Position numbers and translations under genes: made by a program
Assembly (NCBI RefSeq): GCF_036507355.1
Contig: NZ_AP027877.1
Length of the DNA: 64,000 bases
From: Escherichia coli
GTDB taxonomy: Bacteria > Pseudomonadota > Gammaproteobacteria > Enterobacterales > Enterobacteriaceae
Reading direction: 5' to 3' (one strand)
Shown here: in pieces, positions 2,136-2,607 of the stretch
How the letters are laid out: each line of letters starts with the position of its first letter
Numbering within the stretch: the stretch's first letter is position 1
The notes under the pieces: model-generated
Databases searched by the model: none
Seen by the model: only the letters and a program-made list of their open reading frames with translations
Told to the model about the DNA's origin: nothing

Positions 2136-2607
2136 TGCATCTCCAGAAATCATGAAGGAAACGTCGTTCATATCGGTGGTGTTAATTACAGATATCACGC
2201 CCTTTAATTTGGAAATAAAACTTTAATCACCAATATTGAAAATGTCACACGCAGATAAATCCAACTTTAAATATTGTTAAGTTCCTCACCAATATTGAAA
2301 ACATGGCGTAGCAAAAAGAAATTTTCAATATTGTTTTATAGATCACCAATATTGAAAGTCAGATGCTATTTTTTTACCCACAAAAGAACATAACAAACTG
2401 ATTAATAACAAAAATTAACGGAAAAACGTCCTCTATTCACCCGAAACAAAAATGTGACACCAATCACAGAACACAACTTATTGAATACCCATTATGAGTT
2501 AGCCATTAACGCATCCACGAGGTTAATAATAATTATATTAAATGTTAACAAAAATAAAACAAACGGGAACGCAAAATAAATATTCGTTTTCACAGTGGAA
2601 TTAACTC
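2136..2607. promoter_or_regulatory. divergent cai/fix control region (AT-rich, repeated motifs)
   Basis: 472-bp intergenic region between divergent fixA and caiT; contains a CRP-consensus palindrome and three direct copies of CACCAATATTGAAA. Confidence 0.6.
2453..2468. promoter_or_regulatory. CRP-binding site consensus (TGTGA-N6-TCACA)
   Basis: Sequence aaaTGTGAcaccaaTCACAgaa, a perfect match to both CRP half-sites, about 140 bp upstream of the caiT start. Confidence 0.5.

What the first reader, a model, noticed from the sequence alone, without database searches (positions are those of the whole stretch)
2226..2360. Three direct copies of CACCAATATTGAAA at about 58-bp spacing, plus an inverted partial copy, in the cai/fix divergent promoter region
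Copies start at about 2228, 2287 and 2344, with the complementary TTTTCAATATTG at about 2322. The spacing of roughly 5.5 helical turns and the embedded AATATT palindrome suggest repeated binding sites for a regulator, plausibly the locus-specific activator CaiF and/or nucleoid proteins. I cannot confirm from memory whether these correspond to the mapped CaiF sites.
Basis: seen in the sequence. Interest (0 to 1): 0.3.

Follow-up and report, generated by a model that had tools for sequence, protein, structure and literature searches.

The report
CaiF activator boxes, cai–fix promoter
The repeated 14-mers are the already published binding boxes of CaiF, the carnitine-pathway activator, in the E. 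coli cai–fix control region. The one new point is that the unpaired third copy, inside the fix core promoter, is the box best conserved across enterobacteria.

Summary
CACCAATATTGAAA occurs exactly at 2228, 2287 and 2344, between fixA (minus strand, ATG at 2135) and caiT (plus strand, 2608).

There are five copies of the 11-mer CAATATTGAAA. Four of them form two 35-bp units, TTTCAATATTG-N13-CAATATTGAAA, at 2266-2300 (one mismatch) and 2323-2357 (perfect). That is the published CaiF consensus for sites F1 and F2 (PMC12083890 and PMC3680233, both citing Buchet 1999). The CaiF interpretation is therefore supported, and the finding is already known.

The third direct copy (2227-2241 with its TCAC prefix) has no inverted partner. 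It lies inside the predicted fix core promoter, between the -35 and -10 hexamers.

In 80 caiT loci from other genomes, these boxes occur only where caiF is present:
- They are about 140-fold enriched in the intergenic region.
- The number of paired sites varies from 0 to 3 between genera.
- The unpaired promoter box, together with an adjacent AAATAAWAC block, is nearly universal: 49-50 of 51 caiF+ loci against 0 of 24 caiF- loci.

I infer that this box is the ancestral CaiF operator. It may act as the homologue GrlA does in the LEE1 promoter spacer. That is inference, not shown. Interest is low to moderate.

The parts
2227..2241 (+). Unpaired promoter-proximal CaiF box ('P-box'), TCACCAATATTGAAA.
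   Evidence: It is an exact copy. No inverted partner is present at the N13 spacing: 4/11 matches at 2207-2217, read, and no full-site match. It lies in the 17-bp spacer of the only sigma-70-like promoter predicted on the fix strand. It is the most widely conserved box across caiF+ genera.
2213..2221 (+). Conserved block AAATAAAAC, always 5 bp from the P-box. It covers the inferred fix transcription start and the edge of the -10 region.
   Evidence: Information content is high across 14 genera while the neighbouring columns vary. The module AAATAAWAC-N5-TCACCAATATTGAA occurs once per locus, only in the cai-fix intergenic region.
2220..2248 (-). Predicted fix core promoter: -35 GTGACA (2248-2243), 17-bp spacer, -10 TAAAGT (2225-2220). 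The inferred start is near 2213.
   Evidence: Consensus scan. A start at 2213 puts the two CRP-like sequences at -69.5 and -126.5, which are the positions I recall from the abstract of Buchet 1998. That paper is not held, so this is memory and not verified.
2266..2300 (+). fix-proximal full CaiF site, TTTAAATATTG-N13-CAATATTGAAA. Its left arm carries a C-to-A change at 2269.
   Evidence: One mismatch to the published consensus. K-12-like, CB6837 and GPT24-02 all have C at this position. I could not check whether the literature calls this site F1 or F2.
2323..2357 (+). fix-distal (cai-proximal) full CaiF site, TTTCAATATTG-N13-CAATATTGAAA.
   Evidence: Perfect match to the published consensus (I6; PMC12083890).
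2275..2290 (+). CRP-like sequence TGTTAAGTTCCTCACC in the spacer of the fix-proximal CaiF site (putative CRP site 2).
   Evidence: Two mismatches to TGTGA-N6-TCACA. Matches of this quality are at chance frequency in the window. The assignment rests on recalled literature positions.
2332..2347 (+). CRP-like sequence TGTTTTATAGATCACC in the spacer of the fix-distal CaiF site (putative CRP site 3).
   Evidence: Three mismatches, with the same caveat as for the previous part. It lies 57 bp from that sequence, which equals 126.5 minus 69.5.
2453..2468 (+). Perfect CRP site TGTGACACCAATCACA of the cai promoter (CRP site 1). The -10 hexamer CATTAT lies at 2490-2495.
   Evidence: 0 mismatches. The site and the -10 are conserved upstream of caiT in other genera.
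9844..10239 (-). caiF, the gene for the 131-aa activator that recognises the boxes.
   Evidence: The ORF is. Pfam PF07180 CaiF_GrlA scores 28.5 bits against a cut-off of 25. tblastn gives 97.7% identity to the E. coli representative.

Best explanation
The repeats are operator boxes for CaiF, the carnitine-pathway activator encoded 7.5 kb away at 9844-10239.

The basic unit is the 15-mer TCACCAATATTGAAA. Two of the three direct copies each pair with a shorter inverted arm (TTTCAATATTG) 13 bp upstream. These pairs are the two published CaiF sites F1 and F2. Their spacers hold weak CRP-like sequences.

The third copy is unpaired and sits inside the fix core promoter, at about -14 to -28 from the inferred start.

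According to the literature, CaiF is activated by crotonobetainyl-CoA. It binds these boxes and, together with cAMP-CRP, switches on divergent transcription of fixABCX and caiTABCDE.

My inference is that the unpaired box is the ancestral core of the system. It places one CaiF against RNA polymerase at the fix promoter, much as the homologue GrlA acts in the spacer of the LEE1 P1 promoter. On this reading the paired upstream sites are lineage-specific additions that raise occupancy and reach the cai promoter about 160-290 bp away.

What is shown: the sequence match to the published consensus, co-occurrence with caiF, and the conservation pattern. What is inferred: CaiF occupancy and the role of the unpaired box.
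For: - The published consensus TTTCAATATTG-N13-CAATATTGAAA for F1/F2 (PMC12083890; PMC3680233) matches 2323-2357 perfectly and 2266-2300 with one mismatch. The window has no other match with up to 5 mismatches.
- caiF is present in the window.
- Across 80 caiT loci, boxes with at most one mismatch occur at 6.8 per kb inside the cai-fix intergenic regions of caiF+ genomes, 0.048 per kb outside them, and 0.03 per kb in loci without caiF. No box lies upstream of caiT in the loci without caiF, which are Campylobacter, Shewanella, Ferrimonas and others.
- Paired-site number varies by genus: 2 in Escherichia, Citrobacter and Salmonella; 3 in Proteus at a strict 59-bp period; 1 in Pluralibacter, Yokenella, Atlantibacter and Trabulsiella; 0 in Hafnia and Edwardsiella.
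- The unpaired box with its AAATAAWAC-N5 neighbour is found once per locus in 49-50 of 51 caiF+ loci that include the upstream DNA, and in 0 of 24 caiF- loci.
- In most Enterobacteriaceae, Proteus and most Providencia loci that box starts about 95 bp from the fixA ATG. It lies 254-339 bp away in the Hafnia/Edwardsiella group.
- Conservation is confined to the boxes and that block. The flanks vary, and the non-box parts of the 57-59-bp units are no more alike than background.
- The box lies in the spacer of the only predicted fix-strand promoter.
- GrlA belongs to the same Pfam family and is reported as probably binding the 18-bp spacer of LEE1 P1 (PMC10877973; PMC8565820; PMC9979310).
- CaiF with crotonobetainyl-CoA is reported to activate the fix promoter (PMC12083890).
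Against: - I could not read the primary footprinting papers (Buchet 1998, 1999). I therefore do not know whether the unpaired copy was footprinted, discussed, or shown to be unbound.
- The fix start site near 2213 rests on my memory of published positions plus a consensus scan. Another -10 register (TTTTAT, 2220-2215) is better conserved across genera, and it would move the box to about -19 to -33.
- A site inside a core promoter is the classic position of a repressor, not an activator.
- The predicted spacer is an optimal 17 bp, unlike the 18 bp of LEE1 P1.
- The TCAC prefix could be a CRP arm rather than part of the CaiF box.
- One caiF+ genus, Entomohabitans (L039), lacks the module.
Confidence: 0.85

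Rival explanations
1. The paired sites are CaiF sites, but the unpaired third copy is a negative or neutral element. CaiF bound there would occlude RNA polymerase and cap fix expression, or the copy would be a non-functional relic of a former full site.
For: It lies between the predicted -35 and -10, a typical repressor position. It has no partner arm (sequence read). The accessible literature speaks of only two sites, F1 and F2.
Against: A relic would not stay identical from Escherichia to Hafnia while its flanks diverge. In Hafnia, Edwardsiella, Serratia sp. H1w, Leminorella and Limnobaculum it is the only box with a CaiF-box flank between cai and fix, although caiF is kept, so there it must carry the positive signal if CaiF activates at all. 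GrlA, from the same family, is reported as probably activating from a spacer position.
Confidence: 0.15
2. The boxes are bound mainly by a global or nucleoid protein (CRP, FNR, ArcA, H-NS, Fis or IHF) rather than by CaiF.
For: The region is AT-rich. The literature reports H-NS repression of carnitine metabolism (PMC2131755). The TCAC prefix, with sequence 6 bp upstream of it, gives weak CRP-like matches.
Against: The boxes follow the presence of caiF, not the presence of caiT or of global regulators. They are absent from all 24 loci without caiF. CAATATTGAAA matches no CRP or FNR consensus. CRP-like matches of that quality are at chance level. The published consensus assigns these sequences to CaiF.
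Confidence: 0.04
3. The repeats come from tandem duplication of a unit of about 58 bp and persist by descent, not because each copy is selected.
For: The period is regular: 59 and 57 bp here, and a strict 59 bp in Proteus. Site number varies among genera. The repeat finder reports a 51-nt pair at 73% identity (D2). Proteus units 2 and 3 share 18 of 33 non-box positions against a background of 10.6 +/- 2.6.
Against: In the window and in Salmonella the non-box parts of the units match at background level (9/31 and 5/31 in the window, 9/32 and 9/32 in Salmonella). The boxes are identical across genera whose flanks are unalignable. Duplication may explain the origin of extra sites but not their persistence.
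Confidence: 0.05

Closest known systems
CaiF sites F1 and F2 of the E. coli cai-fix intergenic region (Buchet et al. 1999, as quoted in PMC12083890 and PMC3680233)
   Same: The sequence is identical: 11-bp inverted half-sites TTTCAATATTG and CAATATTGAAA, 13 bp apart, two sites, same locus, with the cognate caiF gene present.
   Different: This strain has a C-to-A change in one left arm (2269). The third direct copy at 2227-2241 is not part of either published site as quoted in the papers I could read.
GrlA at the LEE1 P1 promoter of EHEC/EPEC
   Same: GrlA and CaiF share Pfam family PF07180 (PMC9979310). GrlA is reported as probably binding the spacer between -35 and -10 (PMC10877973, PMC8565820). 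The unpaired CaiF box sits in the predicted fix spacer.
   Different: The LEE1 spacer is a sub-optimal 18 bp, while the predicted fix spacer is 17 bp. I did not compare the GrlA target sequence. CaiF binding at this box has not been shown.
Divergent CRP-co-activated promoters with a specific activator (for example malEp/malKp with MalT, or araBAD/araC)
   Same: One intergenic region carries several activator boxes plus several CRP sites that serve two divergent operons. [quoted passage not shown]
   Different: The activator belongs to a different family. The boxes are anchored to one core promoter (fix) and act on the other (cai) from 160 bp or more.

Membership tests
CaiF operator site (F1/F2 type) | 11-bp inverted half-sites TTTCAATATTG / CAATATTGAAA separated by 13 bp | tested here: met
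   2323-2357 has 0 mismatches and 2266-2300 has 1 mismatch. The copy at 2227-2241 does NOT meet this feature: its would-be partner at 2207-2217 matches only 4/11 (read). It is therefore a lone box, not an F-type site.
CaiF operator site (F1/F2 type) | Located in the cai-fix divergent intergenic region | tested here: met
   The boxes lie between the fixA ATG (2135, - strand) and the caiT ATG (2608, + strand).
CaiF operator site (F1/F2 type) | Cognate regulator caiF encoded in the genome, and boxes co-occur with it across genomes | tested here: met
   caiF lies at 9844-10239. Boxes are present in caiF+ loci and absent upstream of caiT in all 24 caiF- loci.
CaiF operator site (F1/F2 type) | Physical protection or shift by purified CaiF | not testable with these tools
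   This rests on Buchet 1999 as quoted by PMC12083890 and PMC3680233. The primary paper is not held.
CRP binding site | Match to TGTGA-N6-TCACA at a class I or class II distance from a start site | tested here: inconclusive
   2453-2468 is a perfect match and is conserved in other genera. 2275-2290 and 2332-2347 have 2 and 3 mismatches, which is chance level for this window (187 matches found against 220 expected). Calling them CRP sites 2 and 3 at -69.5 and -126.5 relies on my memory of Buchet 1998.
GrlA-type spacer-binding activation | Regulator of the CaiF_GrlA family | tested here: met
   PF07180, 28.5 bits against a cut-off of 25.
GrlA-type spacer-binding activation | Operator lies between the -35 and -10 hexamers of the activated promoter | tested here: inconclusive
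   True for the promoter predicted by the consensus scan. The start site was not verified here, and an alternative -10 register would shift the box towards the -35.
GrlA-type spacer-binding activation | Sub-optimal (18-bp) spacer that the activator compensates for | tested here: not met
   The predicted spacer is 17 bp.

The most novel reading that the evidence does not exclude
The unpaired 15-mer inside the fix core promoter, rather than the published inverted repeats F1 and F2, is the ancestral and universal CaiF operator. On this reading a single CaiF box abutting the -10 region is sufficient for CaiF control, as in Hafnia and Edwardsiella, where it is the only box. It would work by direct contact with, or remodelling of, RNA polymerase at the promoter spacer, as proposed for the homologue GrlA. 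The paired sites (one to three per genus) would be later add-ons. This would revise the two-site model of cai/fix activation. It would also make spacer binding a family trait of CaiF/GrlA regulators.
Probability: 0.4. Interest if true: 0.4.

Novelty: already known. Interest (0 to 1): 0.2.

Why it matters
As given, the finding re-discovers the mapped CaiF operators of a well-studied E. coli locus, so it adds little.

The comparative result may have modest value in two ways. First, it points to a third, unpaired box in the fix core promoter as the evolutionarily constant element, which gives a concrete and cheap test (point mutations, EMSA) of how this small CaiF/GrlA family activates transcription. 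Second, it is relevant to people engineering the fix promoter and CaiF as an L-carnitine biosensor (PMC12083890).

Tried and rejected
- I tried to read the primary papers (Buchet 1998, PMC107209; Buchet 1999, PMID 10564497). Neither is held. The published start sites, CRP positions and footprints therefore come only from secondary quotations or from my memory, and are flagged as such.
- I looked for a partner arm for the unpaired box at the N13 spacing. E. coli gives 4/11 and Proteus and Providencia give 6-7/11 in AT-rich sequence (my own reading of the sequences). I rejected this as a real half-site.
- I considered that the conserved module might be coding. In Edwardsiella and Hafnia a 41-49-aa ORF in the cai direction runs through it. 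I rejected this because the motif is identical at the DNA level, third codon positions included, while the rest of the ORF diverges, and because E. coli has a stop codon in that frame.
- I considered a fourth degenerate box next to CRP site 1 (2431-2460, 70% identical to the region around the unpaired box, D1). The sequence upstream of CRP site 1 is not conserved outside Escherichia, so I rejected it.
- I considered recent tandem duplication. The non-box parts of the units are not similar.
- The Rfam scan of 2000-2750 found nothing.
- I searched for extra CaiF sites elsewhere. There are none in the 64-kb window. The 1.17 Mb of locus DNA outside the intergenic regions holds only one weak full-site-like match.

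Full report
**Observation.** The window region 2137-2607 is the divergent control region between fixA (- strand, ATG at 2135) and caiT (+ strand, 2608-4122) of an E. coli-like genome. A 551-bp query matches 5,394 of 5,426 complete E. coli genomes under the annotations fixA and caiT. The 14-mer CACCAATATTGAAA is present exactly at 2228, 2287 and 2344, with spacings of 59 and 57 bp. No other copy with 0-1 mismatch occurs in the 64 kb. The inverted TTTTCAATATTG is at 2322-2333.

**Anatomy.** Searching with the 11-mer CAATATTGAAA shows five copies:
- On the + strand: 2231-2241, 2290-2300 and 2347-2357.
- On the - strand: 2323-2333 (perfect) and 2266-2276 (one mismatch, TTTAAATATTG).

Four copies form two 35-bp units, TTTCAATATTG-N13-CAATATTGAAA, at 2266-2300 and 2323-2357. 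The window has no other such unit, even allowing five mismatches. All three + copies carry the prefix TCAC, so the direct unit is a 15-mer. The copy at 2227-2241 has no inverted partner: 2207-2217 matches the arm at only 4/11.

[quoted passage not shown] 1999). This is exactly the sequence found here. The activator gene caiF is in the window at 9844-10239 (131 aa, Pfam PF07180 CaiF_GrlA). The primary papers are not in the library.

**CRP and promoters.**
- A perfect CRP site, TGTGACACCAATCACA, lies at 2453-2468.
- It is followed by a -10 hexamer, CATTAT, at 2490-2495 that is conserved in other genera.
- The spacers of the two CaiF sites contain TGTTAAGTTCCTCACC (2275-2290) and TGTTTTATAGATCACC (2332-2347).
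- By sequence alone these two are chance-level CRP matches.
- The consensus scan predicts one fix-strand promoter: -35 GTGACA at 2248-2243, a 17-bp spacer, and -10 TAAAGT at 2225-2220. That implies a start near 2213.
- With that start the two CRP-like sequences are centred at -69.5 and -126.5, and the cai start (about 2502) is 289 bp away.
- These are the numbers I recall from the abstract of Buchet et al. 1998. That is memory, not a verified citation.
- On this geometry the TCAC of the 14-mer doubles as the right arm of the weak CRP sites, and the unpaired box occupies fix positions -14 to -28, which is the promoter spacer.

**Comparative evidence.** One scan of representative genomes with CaiT returned 80 loci. 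tblastn found caiF in the Enterobacterales loci but not in Campylobacter, Shewanella, Ferrimonas, Desulfovibrio, Malaciobacter or Endozoicomonas.

Boxes with at most one mismatch occur at 6.8 per kb inside the cai-fix intergenic regions of 37 caiF+ loci. The figures are 0.048 per kb in the rest of those loci and 0.03 per kb in 24 caiF- loci. None lies upstream of caiT in the caiF- loci.

The architecture differs by lineage:

| Lineage | Boxes between fixA and caiT |
|---|---|
| Escherichia, Citrobacter, Salmonella, Phytobacter, Pseudocitrobacter, Intestinirhabdus | unpaired box plus two paired sites |
| Proteus | unpaired box plus three paired sites, strict 59-bp period |
| Pluralibacter, Yokenella, Atlantibacter, Trabulsiella and two unnamed Enterobacteriaceae | unpaired box plus one paired site |
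| Providencia | degenerate left arms |
| Hafnia, Edwardsiella, Serratia sp. H1w, Leminorella, Limnobaculum | unpaired box only |
| Budvicia | two direct boxes 27 bp apart |

In an alignment of 14 genera anchored on the unpaired box, three blocks stand out. They are TCACCAATATTGAA, a block AAATAAAAC five bases to its fixA side (2213-2221), and a weaker block at 2188-2199. The flanks carry little information.

The composite AAATAAWAC-N5-TCACCAATATTGAA occurs once per locus, always in the intergenic region and in the same orientation. It is found in 49-50 of the 51 caiF+ loci that include the upstream DNA, and in none of the 24 caiF- loci. In most Enterobacteriaceae, Proteus and most Providencia loci the box starts about 95 bp from the fixA ATG.

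Every + box in every genus is preceded by TCA(C/A). The left arms lack the mirror GTGA, so the paired sites are asymmetric.

The non-box parts of the 57-59-bp units are not similar to each other. The repeats are therefore maintained as binding motifs, not as recent duplications.

The most cai-proximal box lies 94-121 bp from the CRP site of the cai promoter, whatever the number of paired sites. No conserved box lies next to the cai promoter.

**Mechanism.** Shown here: the match to the published CaiF consensus, the presence of caiF, co-occurrence of boxes with caiF across genomes, and the conservation pattern. From the literature: CaiF, activated by crotonobetainyl-CoA, turns on the fix promoter, and CRP is required.

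My inference concerns the unpaired box. It is the only box shared by all caiF+ lineages, and it abuts the -10 region of fix. It is therefore likely to be the ancestral CaiF operator, placing CaiF in contact with RNA polymerase. The closest precedent is the homologue GrlA, reported as probably activating LEE1 P1 by binding the 18-bp spacer between -35 and -10 (PMC10877973 and PMC8565820; homology in PMC9979310). The paired sites would be lineage-specific enhancers that also serve the distant cai promoter together with CRP.

Several caveats apply:
- The start site is not verified here.
- The predicted spacer is 17 bp, not 18.
- A better conserved alternative -10 (TTTTAT, 2220-2215) would move the box to about -19 to -33.
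- A core-promoter position could equally mean repression.
- I cannot tell whether the original authors already discussed this copy.

**Rivals.** I considered a negative or neutral role for the unpaired box (0.15), binding by global or nucleoid proteins (0.04), and passive persistence of a tandem duplication (0.05). Chance is excluded.

**Verdict.** The feature is the already known set of CaiF sites F1 and F2, interleaved with CRP sites. The residual interest lies in the conserved unpaired promoter box. Overall interest is 0.2. The most novel reading that the evidence does not exclude is that the unpaired box is the ancestral, GrlA-like spacer operator. I give that a probability of about 0.4 and an interest of about 0.4 if true.

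Noticed in passing
window 2269: This strain has A instead of C in the left arm of the fix-proximal CaiF site (TTTAAATATTG). None of 5,381 complete E. coli genomes with a match gave a full-length exact match to the 75-mer 2236-2310; the best listed hits are 74/75. The three E. coli compared and nearly all other genera have C. It could be a private weakening mutation of one half-site or a sequencing error.
   Followed up: partly
window 2188-2199: A third conserved block, ACAGATATCACG (consensus A....TA.CA), lies about 15-25 nt downstream of the inferred fix start, in the fix leader. It is conserved from Escherichia to Proteus, and a related block, AATAGAAATACCATGATTC, is present in Hafnia and Edwardsiella. 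Its function is unknown. It may be another regulator's site.
   Followed up: no
window 2360-2450: The stretch between the cai-proximal CaiF site and CRP site 1 is highly variable among E. coli strains. CB6837 differs at many positions and there is a length polymorphism in the T run. The CaiF-box region and the cai promoter on either side are nearly invariant.
   Followed up: no
L046, L048, L051, L052, L055, L024 (about 250-300 bp upstream of caiT): In Edwardsiella, Hafnia, Serratia sp. H1w and Leminorella the position of the class II CRP site of the cai promoter is occupied by TTTGATTAAGATCAC. That is a near-consensus FNR-type site (TTGAT-N4-ATCA), followed by the same -10 CATTAT. It looks like an evolutionary swap from CRP to FNR control.
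   Followed up: no
L070:16849-16859: Trabulsiella odontotermitis has an exact CAATATTGAAA about 150 bp upstream of its caiF start. It is the only such case seen. This could be chance or local autoregulation.
   Followed up: no
L024 and L045, 25-35 bp upstream of the fixA ATG; L050:8454-8495: Leminorella and Limnobaculum carry an extra TTTCAATATTG right next to the fixA start, and Budvicia has two direct 15-mer boxes 27 bp apart. These arrangements are not seen in Enterobacteriaceae.
   Followed up: no
window 1365-2198 (- strand): The mechanical ORF for fixA extends 21 codons upstream, in frame, to a GTG at 2198. The annotated ATG at 2135 has a GGAG Shine-Dalgarno sequence (visible) and matches RefSeq, so the extension is probably not translated.
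   Followed up: partly
window 2431-2460: A 30-nt stretch just upstream of CRP site 1 is 70% identical to the region around the unpaired box (family D1). It is not conserved outside Escherichia, so it is probably chance.
   Followed up: yes
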